IMG/VR virus record: IMGVR_UViG_3300030330_004701 | Location: 80,966-144,965 of that record | DNA: 64,000 bases | Origin: a virus | Lineage: Duplodnaviria; Caudoviricetes | Reading direction: 5' to 3' (one strand) | Part shown: piece by piece, positions 17,778 through 44,484 of the stretch | Position numbering within the stretch: the stretch's first letter is position 1 | Layout of the letters: the number at the start of each line of letters is the position of its first letter | Notes under the pieces: model-generated | The model's database searches: none | What the model was told of the DNA's origin: nothing | What the model saw: only the letters and a program-made list of their open reading frames with translations | Translations under genes and position numbers: made by a program

Positions 17778-18101
17778 TTACTTATCGAGTTTGACATCTA
17801 CTTTCTTTAGATTTTCAGAGAATTCTTGCAATGTGCTTATGGTTGTTTCTCTAGCTACTTTCTCTGCGGCCTCAGTAGCGTAAGCCTCGACCTCTATTGG
17901 AAGCTCATTAGAAAGAGCTTGTAAAAATGTTTCAAACTTCATAGCTGTGTTGTCTGATATTGAGGTATTGTAATATATACCTTCTTCCAAAATGGTAAGT
18001 CTTTGCTCTAATTTAGCGTTATTATACTCAGCTCTAGCACCTATAAGAACAATAACAGTTAGAAAAACTCCCCTAAAAATATTTAACTGGTTCACCTTCA
18101 T
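17778..18101 (-). CDS. Hypothetical membrane-anchored protein
   Basis: N-terminal hydrophobic helix. Confidence 0.5.
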   Translation of the reverse strand: MKVNQLNIFRGVFLTVIVLIGARAEYNNAKLEQRLTILEEGIYYNTSISDNTAMKFETFLQALSNELPIEVEAYATEAAEKVARETTISTLQEFSENLKKVDVKLDK

Positions 18102-18783
18102 CTTCATTCTCATCTTCTTCTTTGTTGAGTGTCATTAAAATTTTGGACACAATACCGCTACGCACAATATCGCTATAATCCAATTTGCAAACACCAACGC
18201 CAGATACCTCAACGAGTTTATCCATGCATGTTTTAAGACCACCTTGATGCTTGCCTAAGTCGGACTGTCTTAGGTCTCCATTTATCACAGCTTTGGAATC
18301 CTTTCCAATTCTAGTAATAAACATTTTAATTTGCTCAAACGTGGCATTCTGAGCTTCGTCTAAGATCATAAAGCAATTATGAAAGTTTCGCCCCCTCATA
18401 TATTCGAGCGGGCATAATTCAATAATATCTCTACTTCTATAAGTTTCTACCGTATTCTTTGTAAGATATTGGTTCATCTCCTCTATAATAGGTATTAAGT
18501 AGGGATTAATCTTTTCTACTAATGTGCCGGGCAAGTGACCCAAACCACGACCCGACTCTACAACAGGTCGAGTAATAATAATTTTGTCTACTTTCTTTTC
18601 TATCAAGTATTCACAAGCCATTCCCACAGAAACACTTGTTTTACCAGATCCAGCAGGCCCAGAACAAAAAGTCACATCAGACTTGTTTATGCTCTGCATG
18701 TAGGTTTCTTGGTTTCGTGTTTTAGGCCGTAATATTTTTCTTCTTTGTCTTGTTGTCTTTGGTTTTTTTGCTTGTCTTGCCAT
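18073..18783 (-). CDS. phoH: PhoH-family ATPase
   Basis: GPAGSGKT, ITRP, LGHLPG, YMRGRNF, ILDEAQN, TRIG, GDLRQSD. Confidence 0.95.
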   Translation of the reverse strand: MARQAKKPKTTRQRRKILRPKTRNQETYMQSINKSDVTFCSGPAGSGKTSVSVGMACEYLIEKKVDKIIITRPVVESGRGLGHLPGTLVEKINPYLIPIIEEMNQYLTKNTVETYRSRDIIELCPLEYMRGRNFHNCFMILDEAQNATFEQIKMFITRIGKDSKAVINGDLRQSDLGKHQGGLKTCMDKLVEVSGVGVCKLDYSDIVRSGIVSKILMTLNKEEDENEDEGEPVKYF

Positions 18784-19091
18784 TAATTATTCTCTACTGC
18801 TATAGTTTTAATTTCTGAACCCTGACACATTGGACACATCGACTGAGAGCCGGGTTTATGTATGCCAAGTTGGTGATGGGTCATAAGGATTGCTTGCATT
18901 ATCTGCGTATCTCTAAGTCTCGCATGTATGGGTAATTCTCTGAGATCTTTTTCCACTGGGATTTTGACCTCTATTGATGGCTCCTTATTCATTATATGCC
19001 TGAACATATAGAAAGAGCTCGCTAAATTCAGTAAAGATAGAGAAAAAAGCACGTAAACTGCGTTCTTGTAGAATTTCATTATATTAACCAA
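18783..19091 (-). CDS. Small membrane-anchored protein with His/CxxC motif
   Basis: N-terminal TM; THHQLGIH...MCPMC; overlaps DUF1501 stop. Confidence 0.55.
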   Translation of the reverse strand: MVNIMKFYKNAVYVLFSLSLLNLASSFYMFRHIMNKEPSIEVKIPVEKDLRELPIHARLRDTQIMQAILMTHHQLGIHKPGSQSMCPMCQGSEIKTIAVENN

Positions 19092-20298
19092 ACAGTTCGG
19101 TTATAACCTTGCCGGAGTTAGCGATTTTCATAGGTCTACCACTGTTGCTAGTAAACGTAGTACCCAAAGAGATACCAAGTGCTTTGCAAACAGAAGCCAT
19201 GACATCCTGAGATGTATATGGTTCAGTTTCAACACGAGTACCATCTGAGTTTGTTTCGCCAATGGCTATGCCGCCATTCATTCCAGCTCCACCAACAACA
19301 ACACTCCAGCTTCGCGCCCAATGGTCACGACCAGCATTACCGTTGATACGGGGAGTCCTACTGAACTCACCCATCCAAATAATCGCTGTGTCTTGTAATA
19401 ACCCACGCTGCTCTAAGTCTTCATACAGCGCGCTCATGCCTTGATCTAACATGGGCAGTTTCGTGTCTCTTAATGTGGGAAAAATGTTCTGATGATTGTC
19501 CCAACCACCTAAATTAACTTCAATGAATGGCACTCCTGCTTCGACTAAACGTCGTGCCATCAAGCACCCCTTCCCAAAGTTATTATTTCCGTATCTTTCT
19601 TTTATATTTTCGGGCTCGCTAGCCACTTTGAGTGCGTCCATTTGGGCACTTGTTAGAACATTAAATGTCTCTTTAAGGATCGCCTGATGTTCTTTTGCTA
19701 ATGACCCTCTTCTCTGATTTATAAAATTACTCTCAATAGCATCTAAAGCGTAAGCCCTTTGGTAGAACCTCTGATCTACTTTCATATCTAGATTTCTGAT
19801 TCTGCCATCACTATTAACAACAAAAGGATTGTATTTAGCTCCTAGAAAACCTGCTCCCATACTTCCTCCTCCCACCGAGATGAACTGGGGGATTGCCAAA
19901 TCATTCCGTCTTAATTGATGGGATAGGACAGATCCATAGCTAGGATGGTCAATGCTAGGATTAGGAACGTAGCCAGTGTGCATGTAATAACGACCACGCA
20001 TATGGTCAGCTTCACGAGTACTCATACTGCGGACAATAGCGGCATTGTGCATCTGTTTAGCCATAAGTGGCATATGTTCTGTTATTTGAACATCACCGCT
20101 AGTAGCTATAGGTCGAAATGCACCGCCTGTTGGAGCACCCGGTTTAAGATCCCAAATATCCATTGTCGAAGGGCCTCCACCCATCCACAATAAGATCGCT
20201 GACTTTCCATTCTTTTTTAGTTGGTCTTCATTTGCTTTCACTGTCTCTGCTAAAGACAGGGCGCTCATCACAGATGTTAAAAATGTTCGTCTTTTCAT
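19084..20298 (-). CDS. DUF1501 family protein (Tat signal), copy 1
   Basis: MKRRTFL; ILLWMGGGPSTMDIWDLKP; ARRLVEAGV; GGWDNH; GEFSRTPRIN...GRDHW. Confidence 0.88.
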   Translation of the reverse strand: MKRRTFLTSVMSALSLAETVKANEDQLKKNGKSAILLWMGGGPSTMDIWDLKPGAPTGGAFRPIATSGDVQITEHMPLMAKQMHNAAIVRSMSTREADHMRGRYYMHTGYVPNPSIDHPSYGSVLSHQLRRNDLAIPQFISVGGGSMGAGFLGAKYNPFVVNSDGRIRNLDMKVDQRFYQRAYALDAIESNFINQRRGSLAKEHQAILKETFNVLTSAQMDALKVASEPENIKERYGNNNFGKGCLMARRLVEAGVPFIEVNLGGWDNHQNIFPTLRDTKLPMLDQGMSALYEDLEQRGLLQDTAIIWMGEFSRTPRINGNAGRDHWARSWSVVVGGAGMNGGIAIGETNSDGTRVETEPYTSQDVMASVCKALGISLGTTFTSNSGRPMKIANSGKVITELFG

Positions 20299-21696
20299 TT
20301 ATCCTACTCCTAATAAAAGCATACCGCCGCCACCACCGCTAGAACCAAGACTGTGTTGGTCTGCACCAATATCCCAAGTTACATTTGTTGTGTATCTATC
20401 AGTGCCATCTATATCATACTGAACATTGTCACTATTGCCCAAATCAGTCCCAGCCTGTAGTGCAACTGAATCATCACCTATATGTAAATCTTCAGAGCCA
20501 GCACTTGTAGAAATAAAATCTATGTCAGTTAAACTCTTACCTATTAAGGCGCTAGTGTCATTATAACTTTTGCCCATATCTTTTGCATTGTAAGTCGAAT
20601 GAGTAGTGGTATCAGAAAGGTTTGTGGCTATATCTGCATAGTCATAAAATTGAGCTTGATATGCTCGCTCATGGTCTGAGGCTCCACTAGCATAGAGTCC
20701 CGCAACAATATTGTTTTTAACTTCATCTGCATAACCTCCAGCAAAGTATATACCTTGGGCATGTTTACTGCTTCCTGCGGAATCTACGAAATAAATGGTA
20801 TTATTGTAGATCTTTACTCCACCCTCGTCTCCGGGATTTGCATTATGCACCATGATCGCAATCGTCGTATCGTTGCTGGTTTCATGGAATCTGTACAAAA
20901 TATTGTTTTGTATTTTGAACGTCGATCCCGATGACATTCTGTCACAAAAGATTACACGAGGACCACTAGTTCCCGGATTACCATATTTGTCGTGCAACAG
21001 ACAGTTTCTTATAATAGCATCATCTCCCGCATTATTTCTGAACGCTATATTTGTAGCTGTAGAATTCAAAGAGTCTAAACTTATGTCTAGCCATTCCAAA
21101 GTAAAATTAGCTATTTCCGATTGAATAATCCCGTAATTGTGTGTCGTCCCAGATGTTGGCTTTAATAGCATTCCGCTTTCAGCTGTCCCATCATGCCTGT
21201 CTGCTGAGTTTACAGTTAGAGTGACACTGTTTAAACTTTGCTTATTATTAAAAATTACACCACTGTCTGTGAACGTAGAATCTGCATGACACTCACCAAT
21301 AAGATCATCACTGGAGCCCCAATAAAGATCACTAGTGTCATCAACCATTGCTTCAAATAGAGTTATGGTAGAAAATGCCCTCTTGAAAGTCCCAGAAGCC
21401 TGCTGAAATGAAGGATCAAAAAAATTATTATACGGACTTTGATTGCCCGAACCACTGCCTCCATCATTAAGGTATTTTAAAGTATAATTACTGCCAGAAA
21501 TAGCTGTTAGCAAATATGTAGTTGTACCCATAAAGCTAGACTCATCAGTGATTACAAAAATATCACCCACCGCTGCATTTGCACTAACCGAAGAGGTAAA
21601 TGTTATAACATATTCTCCACTGACAGTGGAACTACTAGCAGGCGTAACTGTGGCTATGCTCTGATTTGATCCTATGCTTACTGTTGTTGTAGCCAT
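20299..21696 (-). CDS. Parallel beta-helix (pectin-lyase-like) protein, possibly virion-associated
   Basis: Repeated IRNC/IQNNI/IYNNTI/VKNNI strands; DIDG...WDIGADQ motif; Ser/Thr-rich; C-terminal GGGGGMLLLGVG. Confidence 0.55.
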   Translation of the reverse strand: MATTTVSIGSNQSIATVTPASSSTVSGEYVITFTSSVSANAAVGDIFVITDESSFMGTTTYLLTAISGSNYTLKYLNDGGSGSGNQSPYNNFFDPSFQQASGTFKRAFSTITLFEAMVDDTSDLYWGSSDDLIGECHADSTFTDSGVIFNNKQSLNSVTLTVNSADRHDGTAESGMLLKPTSGTTHNYGIIQSEIANFTLEWLDISLDSLNSTATNIAFRNNAGDDAIIRNCLLHDKYGNPGTSGPRVIFCDRMSSGSTFKIQNNILYRFHETSNDTTIAIMVHNANPGDEGGVKIYNNTIYFVDSAGSSKHAQGIYFAGGYADEVKNNIVAGLYASGASDHERAYQAQFYDYADIATNLSDTTTHSTYNAKDMGKSYNDTSALIGKSLTDIDFISTSAGSEDLHIGDDSVALQAGTDLGNSDNVQYDIDGTDRYTTNVTWDIGADQHSLGSSGGGGGMLLLGVG

Positions 21697-22514
21697 TATA
21701 TTAACCCTTCTGTAATTTTGTCATATGTTAAAATATCTATGTGTTCTCTTTCGTCCATAGGTTTCCTGCAGTCACACACAATGTTTGCATTTCTTAAATC
21801 ATCAACGGTTTCTCCAAGCTCTGTAGCCAAATCCCAGTAAGGGACAAACCATTGCCTTTTAGCTAAAACAATTGGCTTAGATTCTTCGCTATTTTCAGAT
21901 TGTTCTTCTACTGCGGAAGATCTTCTCGAATAAACGGTTCCTCCAGAAAGTTCAACCCTAGTAAAAGAGTCTCCAGTATAACTTCTGCCGGACATATTTA
22001 TACATACAAAATGTCTCTTCTCTATATCAGTGAAAGACCACATACTATGGTCAGATCTAAGGTAGTCCGTTTCACTTTCTATAATGTTCCAAACCGGCAG
22101 GATAAAATCAGAAAGTGCGTTGGTTCTAAGTTTACCGTACCAGACTTCTGAACCATCAGTTCCGAATATTTTATGATTGGCATTTCTTAATCGTCTAGAT
22201 ATAAACAAAGCTGCATTTATTTTTTCATCATCAGAGTTAGCAGTTTTATTTAGTATATCCTGCTGTCCCGTAATAAGGTTTGTTCTTCTTACATCGTTTG
22301 CATTAACCCTTTCAAATTTATAGGTACGTGTAGCAGCCAAAAACTTTTCTAACAGAGTATTCCTGTCTCTCATCCCAGAAGTATTGAAACCGAAATTTCT
22401 AGGATTACATATATTTTCTGCGTGAGCAAAATTTATACTGTCTAAGCACTTAACGTCAACAACATCTCCGTCTTTGTAGGATGCGCCATCGTTAACTTTT
22501 ACTATTACTTCCAT
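21696..22514 (-). CDS. Hypothetical protein
   Basis: 272 aa ORF with SD. Confidence 0.6.
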   Translation of the reverse strand: MEVIVKVNDGASYKDGDVVDVKCLDSINFAHAENICNPRNFGFNTSGMRDRNTLLEKFLAATRTYKFERVNANDVRRTNLITGQQDILNKTANSDDEKINAALFISRRLRNANHKIFGTDGSEVWYGKLRTNALSDFILPVWNIIESETDYLRSDHSMWSFTDIEKRHFVCINMSGRSYTGDSFTRVELSGGTVYSRRSSAVEEQSENSEESKPIVLAKRQWFVPYWDLATELGETVDDLRNANIVCDCRKPMDEREHIDILTYDKITEGLI

Positions 22515-22535
22515 TATACCCTCTCTCTTTCTACA

Positions 22536-23192
22536 TTATGTTGTAATCTCTAAGTCACACGCTTCGCTTCCGCTTGAATAGTCGTATGATCTTAGGTTGA
22601 GTAATGTTGTGGCTGGATATGATACTGCAATCCACACTGCAAACATCATTGAGTTTCCACTTGACCAACCGGCACGGTCTACAATTTCCTGAACGATGTC
22701 TTTAATATCGGTACTTGTTATCTGACCAAATCCTGTCCCAGTCACCCAGTTAGTTATTCCAGCAGTCGTGAAATTACTCGCTGCCAAATCACTACCCGCA
22801 GTAGGGGCAGACACATTATCTTTATCAAATCCCTTTACAGAAACTGTCCTATTTGGATAGCCGTTTTTGTATGGCTTTAAGTAGGCAGATGAGATTGTTG
22901 CCCCTTGTGGAACCGTTACATTCTGGAATCTGAAATACCCTAAAAAATGGTCTATATAGTTAGGCCAAGCATCCCAATCTTCCTGCAACCCGACATTTAC
23001 ATTACTTCCGCTATTGTAAAGAGTTCCCCAGCCAGATGTAGGAGTAGACACGGAGCTAGTAGACTTCATCGAATAGCCATCATCCGCGCTAGCAGAGACT
23101 GTAAATGTTTGTGTTCCACCGCCTCCGCCGCCGCCTCCGCCTCCGCCGCCTCCGCCGCCTCTGCCCGCGCCTAATAGTAATAAATCGCCCAT
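22536..23192 (-). CDS. Poly-Gly-linked beta-sandwich protein, possibly virion decoration or adhesin
   Basis: MGDLLLLGAGR, poly-Gly tract, then FRFQNVTVPQGATISSAYL...IVQEIVDRAGWSSGN domain recalled from extracellular and phage tail proteins. Confidence 0.5.
   Translation of the reverse strand: MGDLLLLGAGRGGGGGGGGGGGGGGGTQTFTVSASADDGYSMKSTSSVSTPTSGWGTLYNSGSNVNVGLQEDWDAWPNYIDHFLGYFRFQNVTVPQGATISSAYLKPYKNGYPNRTVSVKGFDKDNVSAPTAGSDLAASNFTTAGITNWVTGTGFGQITSTDIKDIVQEIVDRAGWSSGNSMMFAVWIAVSYPATTLLNLRSYDYSSGSEACDLEITT
23117..23160. repeat. GC-rich trinucleotide tract (GGC/GGA) encoding poly-glycine
   Basis: ccaccgcctccgccgccgcctccgcctccgccgcctccgccgcct on the + strand. Confidence 0.85.
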
Positions 23193-23213
23193 AATATCAT
23201 CACCCTATTTTGT

Positions 23214-23600
23214 TTACCATCTAAATTGAAAAAAGAAGCCGTGAAATGGACCCGGATAGACCGGCATTGGTTGAGGCTGAATAACTACAGGAGGCTGAAT
23301 AATCACAGGGGGATAATAAGAGGGGACTCTATAATATCTGAAATGTGGGTTCACGGGTCTATAGTAATTATAAAAACCAAAGCTATGTTTGTTCTCAACT
23401 CTTGGTTGCTGATGCTCAGGCTGAGGCTTCTGCCACTGTTGCTTTCCGGGAATTGTAGGTCTTGCTGTAGGAGGTCTTGTAAAGTCTCTAGGTTGACTTC
23501 TAACAACTTGCGGCGGCTTGATAACTTTGCGTTCTGGCTGATCCGCATTTGCAGATAAAGGCACAAATAACAAGCATAATAGTGAGGCTAAATATTTCAT
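23214..23600 (-). CDS. Secreted Pro/Tyr-rich low-complexity protein
   Basis: Signal peptide MKYLASLLCLLFVPLSANA; PPVIIQPPVVIQPQP. Confidence 0.6.
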   Translation of the reverse strand: MKYLASLLCLLFVPLSANADQPERKVIKPPQVVRSQPRDFTRPPTARPTIPGKQQWQKPQPEHQQPRVENKHSFGFYNYYRPVNPHFRYYRVPSYYPPVIIQPPVVIQPQPMPVYPGPFHGFFFQFRW

Positions 23601-24883
23601 TATATTAACTCCTTTAATGGTTCTCTGTGATCTAGAAGATATTGAGGTCTTCCAGTATTATCTAATAAGGTTGTAGACATTGTATCAATACCTAAGCCTC
23701 TATACATTGTAGCGCATATTTCTTGAATATGTACTGGTCTAGATTCAGGAATTTCGCCAAGCCTATTTGTTTCTCCTACAGTCTGTCCGTGATTAAACCC
23801 TCCTCCTGCGAGTAAAGCACAAGAAACTTGAGGCCAGTGATCACGACCACCCTTTGGATTAATCTTGGGCGTTCTACCAAACTCTCCCCACACTACAACA
23901 AGTGTGTCATCAAGCATGCCACGTTGGTCAAGGTCTCGAACAAGTGCTGATACGCACTGGTCAAGTTTTGCACCATGATCTCTAACCAAGTCGAAGTTAG
24001 AGCCATGACTATCCCAGCGCCCATAAGAAAGAGTAACAGAACGAGCTCCAGCTTCAACAAGCCTTCGCGCCATGAGAACATGTTCATTAACAGTCGGTGC
24101 TCCATCATATTGGAATTTAAAGGGTTTACCGTCTCCATACATTTCTCTAATCTTTGGGTCTTCCTTTGACAAATCCAAAGCGTTCACCAAAGAGCTTGAT
24201 GTCAAAACACCAAAGGCCTCTTCAGTAAAAGTGTCTACGTTAACAGCTTTATCTATAGTTCTATTTAGTTGTGCAAATCCCGTTAATAGGTCTTTGCGAT
24301 TTTTGAATCTCTCAACTTCCATATTAAGTTTGAGATCCTTCATCATCTCGCCATTTGGCTTAAATGGCTTGTGTGTGTCTCCTAAGTAGCCAGCTCCTCC
24401 AGCCTCTGACCAAGGGTTGTGCTGTGTAGGTTCTGCCAATCCTACCGCAACTGGTACGGCAGGATCAACAGATCCCAAAATTTTAGAAGCGCACGCTCCG
24501 ATGGCAGGATAGTTGACTCCAGATACCATATCTTTCCGGCTCCATCCGGTAACACACTGGTATCCATCATGAGAGCCATCCGAACCGACAACAGAACGAA
24601 CCGCAGTAAACTTATCAAACATAGACGCAATTTGCGGAAAACACTCTCCGATGTATACTCCCGCCACATTGGTCGAGATCGGTTTAAATGGGCCACGGAT
24701 TTCCGATGGAGCTTCAGTCTTGATATCCCACATGTCTTGGTGCGGTGGGCCACCGCCAAGAAATATATTGATAACCGCCTTATGAGACGTTCCGCTTTCC
24801 TCTTGGGCACGCAATACTTGTGGCATAGAAAGAAGACCGAGACCACCTACGGACAAAAAACTTCTACGTGATAAATTAAGCAT
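23600..24883 (-). CDS. DUF1501 family protein (Tat signal), copy 2
   Basis: SRRSFL; FLGGGPPHQDMWDIK; ARRLVEAG; WDSH; GEFGRTPKIN...GRDHW. Confidence 0.88.
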   Translation of the reverse strand: MLNLSRRSFLSVGGLGLLSMPQVLRAQEESGTSHKAVINIFLGGGPPHQDMWDIKTEAPSEIRGPFKPISTNVAGVYIGECFPQIASMFDKFTAVRSVVGSDGSHDGYQCVTGWSRKDMVSGVNYPAIGACASKILGSVDPAVPVAVGLAEPTQHNPWSEAGGAGYLGDTHKPFKPNGEMMKDLKLNMEVERFKNRKDLLTGFAQLNRTIDKAVNVDTFTEEAFGVLTSSSLVNALDLSKEDPKIREMYGDGKPFKFQYDGAPTVNEHVLMARRLVEAGARSVTLSYGRWDSHGSNFDLVRDHGAKLDQCVSALVRDLDQRGMLDDTLVVVWGEFGRTPKINPKGGRDHWPQVSCALLAGGGFNHGQTVGETNRLGEIPESRPVHIQEICATMYRGLGIDTMSTTLLDNTGRPQYLLDHREPLKELI

Positions 24884-24899
24884 AATACACCTCTAATTT

Positions 24900-25094
24900 T
24901 TAGCTAATGCATTTGGGGCATTTACATACCTCTACCTTACAAATGCAACTTGTTTCTAGACACGGACACTCATCTACACAAACTTTACAAACTGCTGGTT
25001 CGTCGATATTAAGCATCTCTTTTATCTCCTCTTTGTTAATTAAGCATAACGCCGCAACTATAATAATTGCTACAAGCGGAAGTTTGATCTTCAT
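24900..25094 (-). CDS. Small exported Cys-rich (metallothionein-like) protein
   Basis: Hydrophobic N-terminus then CKVCVDECPCLETSCICKVEVCKCPKC. Confidence 0.55.
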   Translation of the reverse strand: MKIKLPLVAIIIVAALCLINKEEIKEMLNIDEPAVCKVCVDECPCLETSCICKVEVCKCPKCIS

Positions 25095-25112
25095 AATACG
25101 ATCACCCCCTCT

Positions 25113-26411
25113 CTAAATAATAAGGTCTTGTCGAACTGTACCACCGTCCACAATTTCTATAGGACGATCTCCCGGAGCCATAAGCTCCTTATCGGAAACG
25201 ATTCCGATTCTATTGTATATTGTTGCTGCCCAATCCTCTACTGTCATTGGGTTATCTTCTGGTTCGCTTGCTGTAGCGTTGGAAGTTCCATAAACCATCC
25301 CGTTTTTAATGCCTCCTCCAGCCATAACTACACTGAAAACCTTTGGCCAGTGGTCACGCCCAGCGTTGGCATTAATCTTAGGAGTTCTTCCAAATTCAGA
25401 TGCTAGACACACTAAAGTTGAATCAAGCATACCTCTATCACTAAGATCTTCAATAAGAGCCGCGAGCCCTTGATCCAGTGCAGGCACCTGCCCACGAATA
25501 CCATTTTCTATATTGTCGTGCATATCCCATCCACCATAGGTGAGTGTAACAAATCGAGTTCCAGCTTCCACTAAACGGCGAGCCAAAAGCATGCGAGCGC
25601 CAGCAGTATTTCTGCCATACTTATCTCGCATTGCATCGCTTTCTTTATTAATATCAAAAGCGTCTCTGGCCTTCTCGCTGCTAATTAAACTATAAGCACG
25701 ATCATAAAAACTATCTACAGCGTCTAAAGAGTCTGATTTTTCTTTAGTAGCGAAGTAATCGTTTACTGCGGTGAGCATTTTTCTTCTTGTTCCAAATCTA
25801 CCATCGTTTACTCCGTTTGGTAGTTTCAAGTCTCGAACTTGGAAATTGTCGCTTGCCGGATCAGCGCCTAGACTAAAACCCGAGAAGGAGCTACTCAAAT
25901 ATCCAGTACCTGCATATTCATTAGGTTGGTCTGGGATACACACATACGGAGGAAGGTTTTGACGGGGCCCAAACTCATGCGCAACCACTGAACCCATTGA
26001 TGGGTATTGAAGGGCTGGGCTAGGTCTATAACCAGTAAACATATTATGTGTGCCTCGTTCATGAGCCGCTTCTCCATGTGTCATACTGCGAATAATCGTC
26101 ATCTTATCTGTAACTTTGGATGTTTTGACCATCATCTCATTTAATCTAGTTCCGGGAACTACGGTTTCAATGCTAGACATTGGCCCTCTGTACTCAAGAG
26201 GAGCAAAAGGTTTAGGATCAAATGTCTCTTGATGAGCCGAACCTCCCGGCAAATAGATATAAATAACAGACTTTGCTGGGCCTTCAATACTTTCATAAAA
26301 CTTCTGGTCAGCCTGAGCTTGCTCCATACGGAAATAATCCGATAGGCTTAAACCCAAACCACCCAAAAAACCAACTTGCAGAAAAGATCTGCGATTACTT
26401 TTGCAATTCAT
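25113..26411 (-). CDS. DUF1501 family protein (Tat signal), copy 3
   Basis: Start MNCKSNRRSFL; YLPGGSAHQETFDPKP; GGWDMH; SEFGRTPKINANAGRDHW. Confidence 0.88.
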   Translation of the reverse strand: MNCKSNRRSFLQVGFLGGLGLSLSDYFRMEQAQADQKFYESIEGPAKSVIYIYLPGGSAHQETFDPKPFAPLEYRGPMSSIETVVPGTRLNEMMVKTSKVTDKMTIIRSMTHGEAAHERGTHNMFTGYRPSPALQYPSMGSVVAHEFGPRQNLPPYVCIPDQPNEYAGTGYLSSSFSGFSLGADPASDNFQVRDLKLPNGVNDGRFGTRRKMLTAVNDYFATKEKSDSLDAVDSFYDRAYSLISSEKARDAFDINKESDAMRDKYGRNTAGARMLLARRLVEAGTRFVTLTYGGWDMHDNIENGIRGQVPALDQGLAALIEDLSDRGMLDSTLVCLASEFGRTPKINANAGRDHWPKVFSVVMAGGGIKNGMVYGTSNATASEPEDNPMTVEDWAATIYNRIGIVSDKELMAPGDRPIEIVDGGTVRQDLII

Positions 26412-26421
26412 AAAATTTCCT

Positions 26422-27333
26422 TTACCACATTTTGCAAGACCAGTACCGAGCTTTCCATTTTGGGCCCGGAGCTGTATCACATTTGTGTCTTGCTCTAAAA
26501 CTTCTTCTTCTTTCAGGGTTATCCCTTTTAATTTCCATATTAGGATCGCCAAATCTAACAATAACAACTTTACCAGATCCATTCTTAGTATAAACTGCAA
26601 ATTTCTTTGGCCCATCAGGGGTTCTAAAAGGTTTATTTAAAGTGACTTTTCTGCCTTGATATTCTGCCGCTTTGGATTTTCTTGGATGTCCCTTTGGGAG
26701 AAGGTCATTATCCTGCGTATATCCAGAATTAGAAGGCTTACCAGTTCTAAGTAATGTCAAAAAGGCATTTACTCTAGCCATAGCCCATCCATCTCTGGAC
26801 ATTTTTGGTGCATGACTTGTTGAATAGGCTCCAGCTCCTCTGCGATACACAGCTTTGAGCATACCAAGAGTTGCTTTTGATCCTTTGCCTTTAGCATTAT
26901 GCTCTTTGACTTTCTTAGAAAGTCTTTCGGTGGTCTTTTTACTAAAAGTGATTTTACCACTTGGGTTCTTTGCGCTATCAGGCTTGTTTCTTTTTGAACC
27001 TTTCTTCTGATCTTTCTTTGGTGCGGGAGTTCTACGAGGATCTCTAGGGCCGGGCTTGTCAGATTGAGCTTTCTTCAACTCTTCTTGACTAGGACGACCT
27101 TCTTTTTCAGTGCGAGCAGGACGATAGTTATCCCCTTCTCTCTGCTTCTTTTTTCTAATGTTTTCCCACAATCCCGGCTTTGCTTCTGAGAAGTCGTATT
27201 CTTCAGTTTCTTCACCAAAGTCTACATATTCTGCCTCAGCTGGGATGTAAATGTTTTCTTCTGTTACCTCTTCAGTGTAACCAGTTTCATTTAAGTATTC
27301 ATTGAGTGCGCTTGCGTAATTTTCTTTTCTCAT
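26422..27333 (-). CDS. Basic multi-domain phage protein
   Basis: LKAVYRRGAGAY...WAMARVNAFL and C-terminal AEYQGRKVTLNKP...FGDP...SFRARHKC...ARYWSC modules recalled from aquatic virus hypotheticals. Confidence 0.55.
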   Translation of the reverse strand: MRKENYASALNEYLNETGYTEEVTEENIYIPAEAEYVDFGEETEEYDFSEAKPGLWENIRKKKQREGDNYRPARTEKEGRPSQEELKKAQSDKPGPRDPRRTPAPKKDQKKGSKRNKPDSAKNPSGKITFSKKTTERLSKKVKEHNAKGKGSKATLGMLKAVYRRGAGAYSTSHAPKMSRDGWAMARVNAFLTLLRTGKPSNSGYTQDNDLLPKGHPRKSKAAEYQGRKVTLNKPFRTPDGPKKFAVYTKNGSGKVVIVRFGDPNMEIKRDNPERRRSFRARHKCDTAPGPKWKARYWSCKMW

Positions 27334-28586
27334 TATAGTATCACCTTTGCTTCGCCTTCCAGTAAATATCTTGGTCGTCCACCGTTATCTACACGTTGAA
27401 TTCCCTTGTCTATTCCAAAATGATTAAATAATGTTGCTTGTAAATCTAATGGGCCAACTGGGTTCTCTATTGGACTGTAAGACCTGTCTGAAGCACCAAT
27501 AGTTCTACCCGATTGATAGTCTCCTCCAGCCATTACCATTGGTGTAATTGCAGGCCAGTGATCTCTACCAGCATTTGCATTTATTTTTGTTCTACCAAAT
27601 TCACCAGTGACTACTAATAATACTTTATCATTCAAACCCTTATCCCACACATCCTGTAGAAATCCGCTAATAGCTTTATCGACAGGAGCAACTCTTTTCT
27701 TTAGAGCGTCTGAAATATTACTATGCATATCCCAGCCTCCATAATGTAAAGTAATAAACTTTGTGCCATGCTCGACGAGACGACGAGCCAATAGCATTTG
27801 TTCACCAATATCGTTGGCTTTCTCTGAGCCGTATAGGGCTCTCATTTTTTCTGGCTCTTTATCTGTTGCAAATGCATTTTTTGCAGAGCCAAGAATAACA
27901 TCATATGCTTGCCCCTTATAGAAGTCTACAGAGTCTGCACTTTGGCCAGCCACTCTAGCTGCATCTAATCCTCTGAGCAAGTCTTTTCTTGTTGAGAATC
28001 TGTCGAGTTCAACTCTTGGTGTGAGATTGTCTTTATTGGACGGATCAAATGGTTTAAATGCTCCACCCAGCCAAGCGCCTTCATCACCTTCGATTTTACC
28101 TTGTTTAACATATGTTGGTACTCCGTTCTGTGGATGATTCGCACCATAGACAGCGGAAACAATAGAACCAAAAGACGGATATTTAGCTATAGATGTTGTG
28201 GTTCTTTCTGGGTTATAATGCCCAGTCATCATGAAGTGTGTTCCTTGTCTGTGCGATGAATCTTTGTGACTAAAAGAATTTATTACGTTTAATTTAGATG
28301 TATGTTGAGCTAAGCCCGTCCAGTCTGCTCCTAGTGTAATATTAGTTTTAGAATCATGAATTGCTCCATTTACTGGTTGCCATTCAGTTGGAACTGTATC
28401 GTTGGGAGCGTGAAATGTTTCAAACTGAGTTGGGCCACCTCCAAGCCACACCCAGACAACAGCCTTATCTTCGTGCGACAGGACATCCTGAGCAAGGGCA
28501 TAATCAGATAATCCTACAGCGCTGAGGCCAGCACCAATACTTCCTATTCTCAAAAAGTTCCTGCGGTCGAAAATAAAGTCTAACAT
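27333..28586 (-). CDS. DUF1501 family protein (Tat signal), copy 4
   Basis: DRRNFL; WLGGGPTQFETF; ARRLVEHG; GGWDMH; GEFGRTKINANAGRDHW. Confidence 0.85.
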   Translation of the reverse strand: MLDFIFDRRNFLRIGSIGAGLSAVGLSDYALAQDVLSHEDKAVVWVWLGGGPTQFETFHAPNDTVPTEWQPVNGAIHDSKTNITLGADWTGLAQHTSKLNVINSFSHKDSSHRQGTHFMMTGHYNPERTTTSIAKYPSFGSIVSAVYGANHPQNGVPTYVKQGKIEGDEGAWLGGAFKPFDPSNKDNLTPRVELDRFSTRKDLLRGLDAARVAGQSADSVDFYKGQAYDVILGSAKNAFATDKEPEKMRALYGSEKANDIGEQMLLARRLVEHGTKFITLHYGGWDMHSNISDALKKRVAPVDKAISGFLQDVWDKGLNDKVLLVVTGEFGRTKINANAGRDHWPAITPMVMAGGDYQSGRTIGASDRSYSPIENPVGPLDLQATLFNHFGIDKGIQRVDNGGRPRYLLEGEAKVIL

Positions 28587-29633: not shown

Positions 29634-30650
29634 TTAAAAGTCGTCAACTAAATTTCCTACAGAATACTCAGTGACTCTAGTCTCGAAAAAGTTCTTGCAT
29701 TTTTCCAGATCAATGATCTCGCTCATCCAAGGAAATGGGTTCTGTGCATTTCCATAAGGTGATGGTAAATTTAAATTGGTTAATCTTCTATCAGCAATAA
29801 ACTGAACATAATCAATAAACATATCTGCGTTTAGACCTAAGATACCATTTGGTAGAACATCTCTAGCATATGCTAACTCTAGCTCCATAGCTGTATCAAT
29901 ATGCTCAATGGTTTCTTTTTCCATTGCTTTTGTCCAGATCTTAGGATTGTCTTCTCTCAATCTGTTAATAAGAGTTGTACCAAAATTAATGTGGATACTC
30001 TCATCACGAAGAGTGTATTGAATCTGCTCGCCAATTCCCGGCAACTTGTTTTGTCTGTTGAATGAGAGGAGCATAGCAAAACCAGAGAAGAAGAAAATCC
30101 CTTCACAGATAACATAATAAGTAATAATATTACGAAGGAATTCTCTCTTCCCCTCTAGCGTATTTATATTAAAGTCGGGGCGATTGATGTCAGTTGTGAT
30201 GTTCATCAAGAACTCATCTTTAGCCTTGATACTCGGAATTGAATTATATGCCTGATAAACTTCATCAATATCTAAGTTCAAAGAATCACAAACATAAACC
30301 ACAGTAAGGTTGTGGAGGCTTTCCTCATATGCTTGACGCAGGATATATTGGCGACACTCTGGATCAGTAACAAACTTGAACACGCTGAGCAGTAAGTTGT
30401 TTGCAACTAAAGACTCAGACCCAGCGAAGAATCCTAGACATCTTTTGACTACTAATCTTTCATCTTCAGATAAGGATTTTGATTTCCATTGCTCAATATC
30501 TTTTGCCATAGAGACTTCTGTTGGCATCCAGTTATTTGCTGCGCCGTCTATGAATAAGTCCCATGCCCATTTGTTTGTATGCGGCAAGATTTGATTCACA
30601 GTAGCTACTTTATCTGATATAATTTCTTTGCTTTTCTTCATTATTGACAA
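29634..30650 (-). CDS. nrdB: Ribonucleotide reductase beta subunit, class Ic-like (no radical Tyr)
   Basis: FFAGSESL, EESLHNLTV, EGIFF, RDESIH, NFFETRVTEY. Confidence 0.9.
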   Translation of the reverse strand: MSIMKKSKEIISDKVATVNQILPHTNKWAWDLFIDGAANNWMPTEVSMAKDIEQWKSKSLSEDERLVVKRCLGFFAGSESLVANNLLLSVFKFVTDPECRQYILRQAYEESLHNLTVVYVCDSLNLDIDEVYQAYNSIPSIKAKDEFLMNITTDINRPDFNINTLEGKREFLRNIITYYVICEGIFFFSGFAMLLSFNRQNKLPGIGEQIQYTLRDESIHINFGTTLINRLREDNPKIWTKAMEKETIEHIDTAMELELAYARDVLPNGILGLNADMFIDYVQFIADRRLTNLNLPSPYGNAQNPFPWMSEIIDLEKCKNFFETRVTEYSVGNLVDDF

Positions 30651-33091
30651 CTCTCACATCCGGGATCTAAAATAGAACATGCCTTAATTTCTTCTGCTTC
30701 TGGCTCTTCGGTTGACTTAAAACTAACAGTTGATTTCTCAACACGAGTGGCAGCTTTGCCTCTCAAGTAGTATGTAGTTTTTAATCCGTTTTCCCAAGCA
30801 CAAAAATATAAGTCATTCAAAAACTTAAGGCTATCATGTTTGTTGTAAAGATTCAGTGACTGTCCCATATCAATCCACTTCTGTCTTTCAGCCGCAGCCT
30901 TAATTAAAATCTCTGGTTCAATATCAAAAGCCGTGATAAACTCTCGCTGGATGTCTTCATCCAAATCAACCGCCATAACATCTCCGTCTGCAGTTTTGAG
31001 AGCATCTACTAGCTCTTGACACCAAATACCCTTCTTCTTGGCCATTGCAACAAAGTGCTCATTGACCATTGTGAATTCGCCACTAAGCGTTGAATACACA
31101 TAAAGAATTGAGTAATCTGGCTCAATAGACTGTGAGCAACCTTGAATATATGAAATGGTTGCGGTAGGGGCGATTGCCATAACATTACTATTGCGCATGC
31201 CATGTTTTCTCACTAATTCCCTGACCTCATCCCATTCTTCTACAAAGTTCTCGAAGTCCTCTTTCTTATACACATTATCTGACCTGTGAGTCTCTCTCTG
31301 GTTCATTAAATCACAATAAGTATCTATAGGAAAATTACCTTTATCCCATTCAGAACCCTCAAAAGAGGGGTATGCGCCTTTTTCTTTAGCCAATAATGCC
31401 GATGTTTTGATCGCGTGCAAAGAAATAAATTCTTGTATTTTTCCGCACAATATAACCGCATCTTGCGAATTATATGGTATTCCTAGCTTGTGCAGCACAT
31501 CATGAGTGCCCATAATGCCAAGTCCTACAGGTCTATGCTTTAGGTTAGACTTTTTAGCCTCTTTTGTAGGATAGAAGTTTAGATTAACCACATTGTCTAA
31601 GCCTCTAACCGCCACCTCTACAGTTTTTTGTAGCTTTTTCCAGTCGATTGTACGAACTTTCAAGTGTGACGAAAGATTAATACTGGCTAGATTGCAAACT
31701 GCTGTTTCACCTACCTCAATAACTTCTCCCTCTTCGTATACTGTTGGCTTAGTGTGTAATAATATTTCTGTACATAAATTAGAAGAATGAACTACACCTT
31801 CGTGTTTATTAGAATATCTTATATTAGATGGATCTTTGAAGGTAATCCAAGGATGTCCAGTTTCGTAAAGAGCCGTCAAAACCTTCTTCCACAAATCTTT
31901 TGCATTAACAACCCTATGATTTCTAATCTCTCCATTGTCTGCTGCTTTCTTGTACTTTCTATAAATTTTAGTAAAATCCTTGCCATAACTATCATGTAGT
32001 TCAGGACATTCCGCAGGGTCAAATAGATACCAATCTTGGTTCTTTGAGACAGCCAGCATAAAATCATCTGGAATCCAAATGGCTGTATTCATGTCGTGAC
32101 AACGGCGGCGATCATCTCCTGTGTTCTTTCTAAGATCTAGGAAGTCTTCAATATCTAAGTGCCAAGGCTCAATGTAAGAACATCCAGCACCTTTTCTCTT
32201 TCCCCCCTGATTCACAGCTACCAGCAGGTCATTAAATATCTTTAGCCAAGGAACAAGTCCTGTAGACTTTCCATTAGTGCCTTTTATATAGCCGCCTGTA
32301 GCTCTTACACTAGACCAATCCACTCCAAGTCCTCCAGCATATTTCGACAATCTAGACTGTCCATGTAGCGTACCAAAGATACCATCAATTGAATCTCCTA
32401 CTGTACTCAAGTAGCATGAGGAAAGCTGAGACCTACGAGTTCCGCTATTAAACAAGGTCGGTGTTGACGGAGAATACCTAAACTCTGACATCATATTATA
32501 TATTTCGAGAGCCTTATCTTCTTTATTGTTCCCCTCAGCAAGACATAGCCCCATAGCTACCCGCATATAAAATGCTTGAGGGGTTTCCATTCTCTGCTCA
32601 TTTAGGTGGATAAAATAGCGATCATAGAGTGTCTGGATACCCAAGTACTTGAACAGCTTGTCCCTTGATGGAACCATATTCTCGGCTAGGTAGTCAAGAT
32701 CATAAGAAAGGAGACTATCACTGAGCCTCTCTTCTTTTACTAGCTTTTTGATGTTTTTCACAAAAGCTTTTTTATACTGCTCTTCAAAAGTTTCACTGCC
32801 TACATCTTCGCCAAAAACTTCTTTGTAAAGATTGTTGAGTAGCATCCTCGCTGCAACATAAGCATAGTTCGGTTCTTTCTCTATCTTTGAGCGGGCTGAT
32901 AATATCAGAGCCTTATTAATTTCTGACGTTGGTATTTTATTGTATAACTGCAGACTGGCATCAAGAACTACCTCACTGACAGAAACGTCTTCTAATTCCC
33001 CACAAGCCCTTTCAACGCATTCGTTAATTTTATCTAAACAAACATCTTCTAATCTACCATTACGTTTTTTAATCTTTATATCTTGGCTCAT
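30641..33091 (-). CDS. nrdA: Ribonucleotide reductase class I alpha subunit with ATP cone
   Basis: IKKRNG ATP cone, STPTLFNSG, QLSSC, SNLCTEI, VCNLAS, APTATIS, KTTYYLR, C-terminal CESC. Confidence 0.95.
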   Translation of the reverse strand: MSQDIKIKKRNGRLEDVCLDKINECVERACGELEDVSVSEVVLDASLQLYNKIPTSEINKALILSARSKIEKEPNYAYVAARMLLNNLYKEVFGEDVGSETFEEQYKKAFVKNIKKLVKEERLSDSLLSYDLDYLAENMVPSRDKLFKYLGIQTLYDRYFIHLNEQRMETPQAFYMRVAMGLCLAEGNNKEDKALEIYNMMSEFRYSPSTPTLFNSGTRRSQLSSCYLSTVGDSIDGIFGTLHGQSRLSKYAGGLGVDWSSVRATGGYIKGTNGKSTGLVPWLKIFNDLLVAVNQGGKRKGAGCSYIEPWHLDIEDFLDLRKNTGDDRRRCHDMNTAIWIPDDFMLAVSKNQDWYLFDPAECPELHDSYGKDFTKIYRKYKKAADNGEIRNHRVVNAKDLWKKVLTALYETGHPWITFKDPSNIRYSNKHEGVVHSSNLCTEILLHTKPTVYEEGEVIEVGETAVCNLASINLSSHLKVRTIDWKKLQKTVEVAVRGLDNVVNLNFYPTKEAKKSNLKHRPVGLGIMGTHDVLHKLGIPYNSQDAVILCGKIQEFISLHAIKTSALLAKEKGAYPSFEGSEWDKGNFPIDTYCDLMNQRETHRSDNVYKKEDFENFVEEWDEVRELVRKHGMRNSNVMAIAPTATISYIQGCSQSIEPDYSILYVYSTLSGEFTMVNEHFVAMAKKKGIWCQELVDALKTADGDVMAVDLDEDIQREFITAFDIEPEILIKAAAERQKWIDMGQSLNLYNKHDSLKFLNDLYFCAWENGLKTTYYLRGKAATRVEKSTVSFKSTEEPEAEEIKACSILDPGCESCQ

Positions 33092-44480: not shown

Positions 44481-44484
44481 AAAG

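What the first reader, a model, noticed from the sequence alone, without database searches (positions are those of the whole stretch)
19084..28586. Four divergent Tat-exported DUF1501 paralogues in a lytic phage: a possible host-envelope system
Seen: four full-length (about 400-430 aa) DUF1501-type genes within 10 kb. Each has a twin-arginine leader (RRTFL, RRSFL, RRSFL, RRNFL) and intact GG..D/E, WDxH, (G/S)EF.RT and GRDHW motifs. They are clearly divergent from each other, so not a recent tandem duplication, and read AT-rich like the rest of the genome. Known: DUF1501 is strongly expanded in Planctomycetota, often alongside DUF1549/DUF1553 proteins; function is unknown. No such partner genes are in this window. 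Inference: the phage captured and retains several DUF1501 subfamilies to hijack, titrate or remodel a periplasmic planctomycete system during infection. I am not aware of a described phage auxiliary module like this.
Basis: partly seen in the sequence, partly recalled or inferred. Interest (0 to 1): 0.85.

Follow-up and report, generated by a model that had tools for sequence, protein, structure and literature searches.

The report
Phage cassette of planctomycete DUF1501 enzymes
An uncultured 145-kb marine phage carries four exported enzymes of unknown function, each copied separately from a different gene of its likely planctomycete host, without the partner proteins those enzymes sit beside in bacteria; this offers a small, testable version of one of that phylum's largest unexplained gene families.

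Summary
Four intact DUF1501 (PF07394) genes lie on the minus strand at 19084-20298, 23600-24883, 25113-26411 and 27333-28586. Each has an RRxFL twin-arginine leader, and they are 29-35% identical to one another.

The contig is a real tailed phage (TerL, portal, major head protein; CheckV 94%), not a host chimera. The array sits between uvsX/phoH and nrdAB, has phage-like GC3, and recurs in the same order in more than 100 independent IMG/VR contigs, with 1-4 copies.

The copies are not in-phage duplicates: an AU test rejects a single viral clade (p 6e-37). D1, D2 and D3 are orthologues of distinct Planctomycetota subfamilies. D1 is 78-81% and D3 86% identical to genes in two Pirellulales genomes. 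D4 is a phage-only clade with changed near-invariant residues.

In cells, the D1- and D3-type genes adjoin DUF1549/DUF1553 (PSCyt2/PSD1) partners; the phage has none. Selection is strongly purifying (dN/dS 0.03-0.06). The fold is alkaline-phosphatase/sulfatase-like. A complex model supports docking of phage D1 on the host partner.

Best reading: host-derived, Tat-exported orphan catalytic subunits that work with host partners. The chemistry is unknown. No description was found in the searched literature, but this scan has already noted the same cassette on other phage DNA.

The parts
19084..20298 (-). D1: Tat-leader DUF1501, 404 aa. It is an orthologue of a Pirellulales subfamily whose cellular gene lies directly downstream of a 580-aa PSCyt2-PSD1 protein.
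   Evidence: Pfam E 2e-102. Identity is 81% to G288 and 78% to G001. Host context. AF2 model pLDDT 93.5, alkaline-phosphatase-superfamily fold with Z about 18. dN/dS 0.029. The complex model with the host partner scored 0.78 against 0.00 for the best control.
23600..24883 (-). D2: Tat-leader DUF1501, 427 aa. It is missing from many related phages.
   Evidence: Pfam E 6e-83. Identity is 58-64% to genes in G001-G004. The viral clade sits inside a Planctomycetota subfamily with 99% support. Present in 15 of 78 related loci. dN/dS 0.035.
25113..26411 (-). D3: Tat-leader DUF1501, 432 aa from the likely start (the ORF is open to 26615). It is an orthologue of gene 1 of the conserved PVC four-gene module.
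   Evidence: Pfam E 6.5e-114. Identity is 86% to G001 and G288, and 62-78% across 189 of 301 Pirellulales genomes sampled. The cellular context is DUF1501, then a PPC protein, then PSCyt2/PSD1, then PSCyt1. This matches the four-gene cluster of PMC3542564. dN/dS 0.053.
27333..28586 (-). D4: Tat-leader DUF1501, 417 aa. It belongs to a phage-only clade with derived changes at near-invariant positions.
   Evidence: Pfam E 2.8e-66. The best cellular identity is only 43-44%. The viral-only clade has 20 members in three deep subtypes. Changes are D50H, K52P/N, T66D and R90N. dN/dS 0.064.
26422..27333 (-). g303: a basic 303-aa protein between D4 and D3, conserved at this place in many related phages. 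No functional link to the DUF1501 genes is shown.
   Evidence: Pfam DUF5824 at E 3.5e-6 and a weak DUF5754 match. phrog_7595. Synteny.
23214..23600 (-). g128: a small gene between D2 and D1, found in several relatives; function unknown.
   Evidence: No Pfam or NCBIfam hit. Homologues at 51-91% identity at the same place in related loci.
20299..23192 (-). Variable insert of three genes (465 aa, 272 aa, 218 aa) between D2/g128 and D1. It is largely specific to this genome.
   Evidence: No family hits apart from a weak DNRLRE match, E 0.0088. Absent from most related loci; only g218-like genes at 35-40% in three of them.
18073..18783 (-). phoH-like gene, two genes downstream of D1. It is a conserved flank of the array.
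   Evidence: Pfam PhoH E 4e-70. Conserved next to D1 in related loci.
29634..33091 (-). nrdB and nrdA, the phage replication-module flank upstream of the array. With g340 (28597-29619) they lie between the replication genes and D4.
   Evidence: phrog_86 and phrog_84. Conserved synteny nrdA-nrdB-g340-D4.

Best explanation
The four genes are host-derived auxiliary genes. Each encodes the Tat-exported catalytic subunit (DUF1501, alkaline-phosphatase/sulfatase-like fold) of a different planctomycete periplasmic DUF1501 + PSCyt2/PSD1 (DUF1549/DUF1553) module.

They were captured separately from Pirellulales-type hosts, recoded to phage composition, and kept under strong purifying selection in a widespread marine phage lineage.

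During infection they would be made in the cytoplasm and exported folded by the host Tat machinery. In the periplasm they would dock on host-encoded PSD1 partners, which the phage does not carry. This would sustain, boost or redirect a metal-dependent ester-hydrolysing step (phospho- or sulfo-ester; the chemistry is unknown) that benefits phage production.

D4 has evolved inside phages and may have a changed specificity.

**Shown:** family, fold, leader motif, separate origins, host partner adjacency, lack of partners in the phage, and purifying selection.
**Supported by a model only:** docking on the host partner.
**Inferred:** export, catalysis, substrate, and benefit to the phage.
For: **It is a phage gene array, not host DNA.**
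- TerL, portal and major head protein are present; the array lies between uvsX/phoH and nrdAB.
- The order nrdA-nrdB-g340-D4-g303-D3-D2-D1-phoH recurs in independent IMG/VR contigs.
- GC3 of the four genes is 0.28-0.36, like phage genes, against 0.48-0.52 for the host orthologues.

**The copies have separate origins.**
- They form four viral clades in separately supported cellular subfamilies.
- Forcing one viral clade costs 680 lnL units, p-AU 5.7e-37.

**The source is Planctomycetota.**
- D1 is 78-81% and D3 86% identical to genes in the same two Pirellulales genomes.
- Those bacterial genes nest within the viral D1 and D3 clades.
- TatC is present in G001 and G003 and absent from the phage.

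**Partners exist in cells but not in the phage.**
- The D1-type cellular gene follows a 580-aa PSCyt2-PSD1 gene.
- The D3-type gene heads the four-gene module.
- The phage has no PSD1 or PSCyt2.

**The genes are kept functional.**
- dN/dS is 0.03-0.06. All 146 phage copies examined keep WDxH, EF(G/S)RT and GRDH, and 144 of them an RRxF/L leader; none has an internal stop.
- D1-D3 keep all family near-invariant polar residues.

**Fold.**
- The AF2 model has pLDDT 93.5.
- VIA-align gives Z 18.2 to ENPP6 (rmsd 3.2, 243 aligned) and to PafA, and Z 16-17.6 to S1 sulfatases.
- In the profile search, GEFGRT aligns with the sulfatase SDHG metal-ligand motif.

**Docking on the host partner.**
- The complex model of mature D1 with the G001 partner scored 0.78; the best of 3 controls scored 0.00.
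- That mark was reached by 58 of 80 solved complexes and 2 of 110 mismatched pairs. The counts hold only roughly because my own alignments were used.
- The runs share at least 73% of contacts, and the partner's pLDDT is at least 87.
- Neither protein has a solved relative by sequence, and Foldseek finds no solved fold match for the partner. The pass is therefore unlikely to come from memory of a solved complex.
- The interface joins the D1 helical cap (R177, R181 and L185 are invariant in all four paralogues) to the invariant C-terminal W568/L571/N572/N574/F576/H580 motif of PSD1.
Against: - No activity, substrate or export has been measured for any DUF1501 protein.
- The canonical Asp at the end of strand 1 in alkaline-phosphatase-type enzymes appears to be Gly here. 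That is my reading of the sequence, not a structural superposition. No sulfatase C/S-x-P-x-R motif is present. The chemistry is therefore open.
- The closest cellular relatives found for D2 (in G004) and D4 (in G003) have no adjacent partner, so not every copy need work with one.
- Predicted interface positions are less conserved than the rest of the protein between phage D1 and the G001 orthologue, 68% against 82%. This gives no independent support for the interface.
- The model used a MAG protein as a stand-in for the unknown true host.
- dS is near saturation (0.9-1.65), so the dN/dS values are rough.
Confidence: 0.6

Rival explanations
1. The four proteins are stand-alone periplasmic scavenging enzymes (phosphatase, phosphodiesterase or sulfatase-like). 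They would need no partner and would raise the supply of phosphate or sulfate/carbon for phage replication, like phage-borne phoA or pstS.
For: - The fold is alkaline-phosphatase superfamily, with NPP and PafA phosphatases among the tied top rows.
- Tat export is also used by the known phosphatases PhoD and PhoX (my own knowledge).
- A phoH-like gene is a conserved neighbour.
- The closest cellular relatives of D2 in G004 and of D4 in G003 have no adjacent partner gene.
Against: - D1- and D3-type cellular orthologues are consistently adjacent to PSD1 partners across many genomes.
- The complex model supports a partner interface.
- The phoH function is itself unknown, and phoH is common in marine phages whatever the phosphate status (my own knowledge).
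Confidence: 0.2
2. The proteins act as decoy or titrating subunits. They would occupy host PSD1 partners to shut down or mask a host envelope system, for instance a receptor complex, giving superinfection exclusion or host takeover rather than catalysis.
For: - The phage lacks partners, so any effect must go through host partners.
- D4 has lost four near-invariant polar residues.
- The predicted interface region evolves faster than the core among phage D1 orthologues.
Against: - D1-D3 retain every near-invariant putative catalytic residue, with dN/dS 0.03-0.05. A pure decoy need not keep these.
- D4 is also under purifying selection, dN/dS 0.064.
Confidence: 0.12
3. The proteins remodel the envelope. 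They would modify or cleave phosphate- or sulfate-bearing envelope glycans or lipids, as the superfamily members EptA/MCR-1 and LtaS do. This could aid release, alter receptors, or process the glycan made by the phage's own large glycosylation gene block.
For: - EptA, MCR-1, LtaS and PbgA appear among the fold matches at Z 14-15.
I did not check it.
Against: - These transferases score below the NPP, PafA and sulfatase rows and carry membrane domains that are absent here.
- The cellular orthologues are ordinary chromosomal module genes present in most Pirellulales genomes sampled, not envelope-biogenesis loci.
Confidence: 0.06
4. The block is an assembly chimera or a mis-binned piece of host DNA.
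For: GC of the 22-26 kb stretch is slightly raised, 0.42-0.44 against 0.396 for the genome. One orthologue is labelled as from an archaeal MAG.
Against: - The same gene order, flanked by phage replication genes, recurs in more than 100 contigs from many metagenomes.
- GC3 matches phage genes, not host genes.
- Nucleotide identity to the host genes is only 69-72%.
Confidence: 0.01

Closest known systems
DUF1501 + PSCyt1/PSCyt2/PSD1 (DUF1549/DUF1553) gene modules of Planctomycetota, Verrucomicrobiota and Lentisphaerae (Kamneva et al. 2012, PMC3542564)
   Same: - D1-D4 are full-length PF07394 proteins with twin-arginine leaders.
- D3 is an orthologue (up to 86% identity) of gene 1 of that paper's four-gene cluster: DUF1501, PPC protein, PSCyt1/Big_2/PSCyt2/PSD1, PSCyt1/WD40.
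- D1 is an orthologue (up to 81%) of the DUF1501 of a two-gene PSCyt2-PSD1 + DUF1501 pair.
   Different: - The phage carries only the DUF1501 subunits, four from different modules placed side by side, with no PSCyt or PSD partner anywhere in its genome.
- D4 belongs to a clade seen only in phages, with changed near-invariant residues.
- The function of the cellular modules is itself unknown.
Phage auxiliary genes that encode a subunit of a host complex or a periplasmic nutrient protein (cyanophage psbA/psbD, pstS, phoA; recalled from my own knowledge)
   Same: The genes are host-derived, embedded among phage genes, recoded to phage composition, under purifying selection and lineage-wide. Their presumed role is to keep a host process running during infection.
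   Different: - The gene family is of unknown function.
- The products are sent through the Tat pathway.
- Several paralogous subunits were captured independently.
- The host is Planctomycetota, for which I know of few described phages.
Alkaline phosphatase superfamily enzymes: NPP/ENPP phosphodiesterases, PafA, S1 sulfatases
   Same: The core fold is shared: Z 16-18 over about 245-275 residues. Acid and His residues are conserved at the expected loops (WDxH, E of GEFGRT, GRDH). The GEFGRT motif aligns with the sulfatase SDHG metal-ligand motif.
   Different: - Sequence identity is only 10-15%.
- There is no C/S-x-P-x-R formylglycine motif.
- The usual Asp at the end of strand 1 appears to be replaced by Gly-Gly.
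- A helical cap (residues about 154-215) is predicted to bind a partner.
Other phage DUF1501 cassettes noted earlier in this scan (e1-5653154, e1-5653147 and others)
   Same: They report the same kind of cassette: one to four Tat-leader DUF1501 genes in large marine phages, captured separately from planctomycete modules, without partners.
   Different: - This genome has the largest copy number seen among the related contigs I searched (four).
- It carries a genome-specific three-gene insert between D2 and D1.
- Those notes are AI reports on other DNA, not published work.

Membership tests
DUF1501 (Pfam PF07394) | Full-length match to the family HMM above the gathering score (27 bits) | tested here: met
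   The four genes score 343.7, 279.6, 381.6 and 224.7 bits, covering profile positions 1-2 to 386-390 of 390.
DUF1501 (Pfam PF07394) | Twin-arginine leader at the N-terminus (RR in 94% of family rows) | tested here: met
   RRTFL, RRSFL, RRSFL and RRNFL, each followed by a hydrophobic stretch. The motif is kept in 144 of 146 phage orthologues. Export itself was not tested.
DUF1501 (Pfam PF07394) | Family near-invariant polar residues: D50, K52, T66, R90, H99, D267, H269, D285, D294, E311, R314, R324, H326 | tested here: met
   D1, D2 and D3 keep all of them. D4 differs at 50, 52, 66 and 90, so for D4 alone this feature is only partly met.
Alkaline phosphatase superfamily (fold level) | Core alpha/beta fold shared with NPP, PafA and sulfatases | tested here: met
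   D1 model pLDDT 93.5. Z 18.2 with rmsd 3.2 over 243 residues to ENPP6 (5ege), and Z 16-17.6 to sulfatases. Foldseek E about 1e-6 to sulfatases.
S1 formylglycine sulfatases | C/S-x-P-x-R motif that is converted to the formylglycine nucleophile | tested here: not met
   No such motif at the nucleophile position in any of the four. The only pattern match is SDAMR at residue 258 of D3, away from the site. D4 has no cysteine at all.
NPP / alkaline phosphatase two-metal enzymes | Ser/Thr nucleophile and the full set of two-metal ligands | tested here: inconclusive
   Conserved D, H and E residues exist.
DUF1501 + PSCyt2/PSD1 two-component module | An adjacent gene encoding a DUF1549/DUF1553 (PSCyt2/PSD1) partner | tested here: not met
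   There is no PSD1 or PSCyt2 match in the whole phage genome or in 80 related viral loci. The cellular orthologues of D1 and D3 do have such partners.
DUF1501 + PSCyt2/PSD1 two-component module | Physical association of the DUF1501 subunit with the PSD1 protein | tested here: inconclusive
   This rests on a model only: score 0.78 against a best control of 0.00. That mark was reached by 58 of 80 solved complexes and 2 of 110 mismatched pairs. There is no experimental data for any member.
Phage auxiliary (host-derived) genes | Cellular origin, location inside a bona fide phage genome, conservation across the lineage, purifying selection | tested here: met

The most novel reading that the evidence does not exclude
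Phages of marine Pirellulales reprogram the host's DUF1501/PSD1 periplasmic modules by supplying their own catalytic subunits. One of these is a phage-evolved variant (the D4 clade) whose altered active site gives a host partner a new specificity, possibly tied to the phage's own glycan-making gene block. If so, the cassette would be the first experimental entry point to the function of a family present in 50 to over 100 copies per planctomycete genome.
Probability: 0.15. Interest if true: 0.8.

Novelty: new variant of a known kind. Interest (0 to 1): 0.6.

Why it matters
- **A large unknown family.** DUF1501 and its PSCyt/PSD partners are among the largest gene families of Planctomycetota. 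Each of the five genomes searched gave at least 53 to about 100 matches. The only functional discussion my searches found is a 2012 comparative-genomics paper.
- **A natural dissection.** A phage that keeps just four catalytic subunits, under strong selection and without partners, picks out the subfamilies that matter in an infected cell. It gives short, partner-free genes to express, and it predicts a specific subunit-partner interface.
- **A host link.** It ties a widespread, uncultured lineage of 100-240-kb marine phages to Pirellulales hosts.
- **A new class of exported auxiliary gene.** It adds a Tat-exported, periplasm-directed gene class to the known auxiliary genes of marine phages.

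Tried and rejected
- **In-phage duplication.** Rejected by the AU test.
- **Host chimera.** Rejected by conserved synteny and by GC3.
- **Family libraries.** PHROGs and NCBIfam gave no match for the four proteins.
- **GenBank phages.** tblastn gave nothing for D1 and only two short weak matches for D3. The nearest GenBank TerL is 27% identical, from Bacillus phages, so there is no cultured relative.
- **PDB by sequence.** A single-sequence search gave nothing.
- **Word-index homology searches.** Searches for D1 and D2 returned only phage orthologues, 69% identity or more, and so gave no cellular neighbours. Cellular neighbours came instead from the genome scans.
- **Exhaustive representative search.** It under-reported close cellular relatives because clusters are collapsed at 50% identity.
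- **Promoter and terminator scan.** Not above chance.
- **tmRNA comparison.** Comparison with G001, G003 and G004 is only suggestive. The 9-residue tags are similar, but the rest of the RNA shares little beyond the conserved core.
- **Interface conservation.** Predicted interface positions are less conserved than the rest of the protein, 68% against 82%, so conservation does not back the interface.
- **Partner fold.** The PSCyt2-PSD1 model (pLDDT 80) has no Foldseek match in the PDB at E 0.001 or better.
- **Partner Pfam at loose threshold.** A scan at E up to 10 found no DUF1800 or other informative family.

Full report
**What is there.** Between 19,084 and 28,586 on the minus strand lie four full-length DUF1501 (PF07394) genes:
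- D1, 19084-20298, 404 aa, E 2e-102.
- D2, 23600-24883, 427 aa, E 6e-83.
- D3, ORF 25113-26615, E 6.5e-114.
- D4, 27333-28586, 417 aa, E 2.8e-66.

Each begins with an RRxFL twin-arginine motif and a hydrophobic stretch. Pairwise identity is 29-35%. D3 most likely starts at 26411, 10 nt after the stop of the upstream gene; the longer ORF overlaps that gene. The whole record holds exactly these four copies.

**The contig is a phage, and the block is not host DNA.**
- The window is the last 64 kb of a 144,965-bp IMG/VR record, estimated 94% complete.
- The record encodes a large terminase, a portal and a major head protein. It also encodes a split DNA polymerase, primase, DnaB-type helicase, a UvsX-like recombinase and ribonucleotide reductase.
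- The array lies between uvsX/phoH and nrdAB.
- D1 orthologues of 64-98% identity occur in at least 140 IMG/VR stretches. A degenerate-pattern scan finds 303 DUF1501-encoding viral stretches.
- The order nrdA-nrdB-g340-D4-g303-D3-D2-(g128)-D1-g102-phoH recurs in contigs from many metagenomes.
- Fifteen related long records carry 1-4 clustered copies. These include complete ones of 167, 180 and 238 kb.
- GC3 of the four genes is 0.28-0.36, like other phage genes at 0.29-0.37. The closest bacterial orthologues have GC3 0.48-0.52 and are only 69-72% identical at the DNA level.
- No tyrosine integrase was found. 'Lytic' remains unproven.

**Origin: separate captures from Planctomycetota.**
- Trees of 259 sequences (FastTree) and 85 sequences (IQ-TREE) place the phage copies in four clades. 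Each clade sits inside a different, well-supported cellular subfamily.
- Forcing all phage copies into one clade costs 680 log-likelihood units, p-AU 5.7e-37.
- D3 is 86% identical to genes of two Pirellulales genomes. These are G001, a 3.4-Mb Pirellulaceae MAG, and G288. D3 is 62-78% identical to a mostly single-copy gene found in 189 of 301 sampled genomes of that order.
- D1 is 81% identical to a G288 gene and 78% to a G001 gene.
- D2 is 58-64% identical to genes of four planctomycete genomes.
- With these added to the tree, the G001 genes fall inside the viral D1 and D3 clades. D2 is sister to planctomycete genes.
- D4 is different. Its best cellular identity is 43-44%. It belongs to a clade of 20 viral sequences with three deep subtypes and no cellular member.
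- The same two genomes rank first for both D1 and D3. This points to a Pirellulales host near G001/G288.
- The phage tmRNA tag (VEENFALAA) resembles those of G001 (AENNLALAA) and G003 (AEGNFAMAA), but the RNAs are otherwise not close.

**What the cellular orthologues sit next to.**
- D3-type genes head a conserved operon: DUF1501, a PPC-domain protein of about 840 aa, PSCyt2/PSD1, then PSCyt1. It occurs across Planctomycetota and Verrucomicrobiota. This is the 'most complex four-gene cluster' of Kamneva et al. 2012 (PMC3542564).
- D1-type genes lie directly downstream of a 580-aa PSCyt2-PSD1 gene in G001 and G003. That partner family is 62-90% conserved and has an invariant CxxCH.
- A D2-like gene of G001 adjoins a PSCyt1-PSCyt2-NPCBM-PSD1 protein. 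The closest D2 relative (in G004) and the closest D4 relative (in G003) have no adjacent partner.
- The phage genome and 80 related viral loci contain no PSD1 or PSCyt2 homologue.
- The phage has no TatC, while G001 and G003 do.
- Each planctomycete genome searched gave at least 53 to about 100 DUF1501 matches. The phage therefore holds a very small, specific selection.

**Are they kept functional?**
- Across 146 phage orthologues there are no internal stops. WDxH, EF(G/S)RT and GRDH are present in all, and an RRxF/L leader in 144. Median dN/dS is 0.029 for D1, 0.035 for D2, 0.053 for D3 and 0.064 for D4. dS is near saturation.
- D1-D3 keep every residue that is at least 90% conserved in a 116-sequence family alignment.
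- The D4 clade has D50H or N, a variable residue at 52, T66D in the window's subtype, and R90N. Most cellular sisters keep D, K, T and R at these positions.

**Fold and chemistry.**
- The AF2 model of D1 is confident: pLDDT 93.5, pTM 0.90.
- It matches the alkaline-phosphatase superfamily. Z is 18.2 to ENPP6 (rmsd 3.2, 243 aligned) and to PafA, 17.8 to NPP7, and 16-17.6 to many S1 sulfatases. These rows are effectively tied.
- Foldseek ranks sulfatases first, at E about 1e-6.
- A family profile hits a sulfatase sequence at E 8.7e-5. It aligns GEFGRT with the sulfatase SDHG/GDHGR metal-ligand motif.
- There is no C/S-x-P-x-R formylglycine motif.
- These proteins are therefore best described as a distinct branch of that superfamily, probably metal-dependent ester hydrolases. 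The substrate is unknown.

**Docking on the host partner.**
- A complex model of mature D1 (residues 30-404) with the G001 580-aa PSCyt2-PSD1 protein scored 0.78. The best of three controls scored 0.00.
- That mark was reached by 58 of 80 solved complexes and 2 of 110 mismatched pairs. The counts hold only roughly here because my own alignments were used.
- The runs agree in at least 73% of contacts, and the partner's pLDDT is at least 87.
- The model supports binding; it does not show it.
- Neither protein has a solved relative by sequence, and Foldseek finds no solved fold match for the partner. The pass is therefore unlikely to come from memory of a solved complex.
- The interface joins a helical cap of D1 (residues about 154-215) to the C-terminal part of PSD1 (residues 407-580). 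The cap includes R177, R181 and L185, which are invariant in all four paralogues. The PSD1 part includes its invariant terminal W/L/N/N/F/H motif.
- Interface positions are less conserved than the rest between phage D1 and the G001 orthologue, 68% against 82%. They are also less conserved among phage D1 orthologues. Conservation therefore adds no support. It would fit a specificity-determining surface.

**Interpretation.**
- The most economical reading is that these are host-derived auxiliary genes. They would encode orphan, Tat-exported catalytic subunits that use host partners in the periplasm.
- A stand-alone scavenging role is the main rival. It fits the alkaline-phosphatase-type fold and the conserved phoH neighbour.
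- A decoy or titration role fits D4 better than it fits D1-D3.
- Export, binding, substrate and benefit to the phage are all inferences.

**Known or new?**
- Full-text searches for DUF1501, PF07394 and DUF1549+DUF1553 returned 12, 2 and 1 papers. None describes a phage-borne full-length DUF1501.
- PHROGs v4 and 50,697 GenBank phage records hold no full-length relative.
- This scan has noted the same kind of cassette before on other DNA. There are 92 notes in at least 61 genomes, including follow-up reports that reached the same reading.
- I saw those notes only after my own analysis was complete. They agree with it but are not independent evidence.

Noticed in passing
window 44482-44824 (-): The phage encodes a full-length tmRNA (Rfam 101 bits) with the tag VEENFALAA. 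The 9-residue tag resembles those of the candidate host genomes (AENNLALAA, AEGNFAMAA). The rest of the RNA shares little with theirs beyond the conserved core.
   Followed up: partly
window 18073-18783 (-): A PhoH-like gene (Pfam E 4e-70) lies two genes downstream of D1. It is a conserved flank of the DUF1501 array in related phages.
   Followed up: partly
window 20299-23192 (-): A three-gene insert between D2/g128 and D1 is absent from most related phages. The 465-aa protein has repeated NNI/NNT motifs that look like a beta-helix and ends in a Gly run followed by MLLLGVG. The 218-aa protein starts MGDLLLLGAG followed by a run of about 15 Gly. The shared LLLLGxG/poly-Gly element is unexplained.
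   Followed up: no
window 27333-28586 (-) and related viral loci: The phage-only D4 clade has replaced four residues that are at least 90% conserved in the family (D50H/N, K52 variable, T66D, R90N). It stays under purifying selection. This may mean a changed specificity that arose within phages.
   Followed up: partly
window 26422-27333 (-): A lysine-rich 303-aa protein matches DUF5824 (E 3.5e-6), with a weaker match to DUF5754. It sits between D4 and D3 and is conserved there in many relatives.
   Followed up: no
L171 (G003:C321:8472-12770): In the marine Planctomycetaceae MAG NP86, a D2-type gene (60% identity) and a D3-type gene (70%) are adjacent and overlap by a few bases, in the order D2 then D3. 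The phage has them adjacent in the opposite order.
   Followed up: no
L175:6371-8113 and alignment A5: The 580-aa PSCyt2-PSD1 partner of the D1-type gene has an invariant CTQCH (CxxCH) motif and an invariant C-terminal W..LN.N.F...H motif. Its AF2 model (pLDDT 80, mostly helical) has no Foldseek match in the PDB at E 0.001 or better.
   Followed up: partly
window 2731-4311 and 5177-6769 (-): The DNA polymerase is split into two ORFs, both matching phrog_405 at successive profile positions, with other ORFs between them.
   Followed up: no
window 38699-41137 (-): An 812-aa protein has a radical-SAM-domain match (phrog_21308, E 8.8e-14) in its C-terminal half. Its role is unknown.
   Followed up: no
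L113 (CAZVZK010000107.1): A contig labelled 'uncultured Alcaligenaceae' carries two DUF1501 genes flanking a PSCyt2-PSD1 gene. These genes group with planctomycete sequences, so this is probably a mis-binned contig.
   Followed up: no
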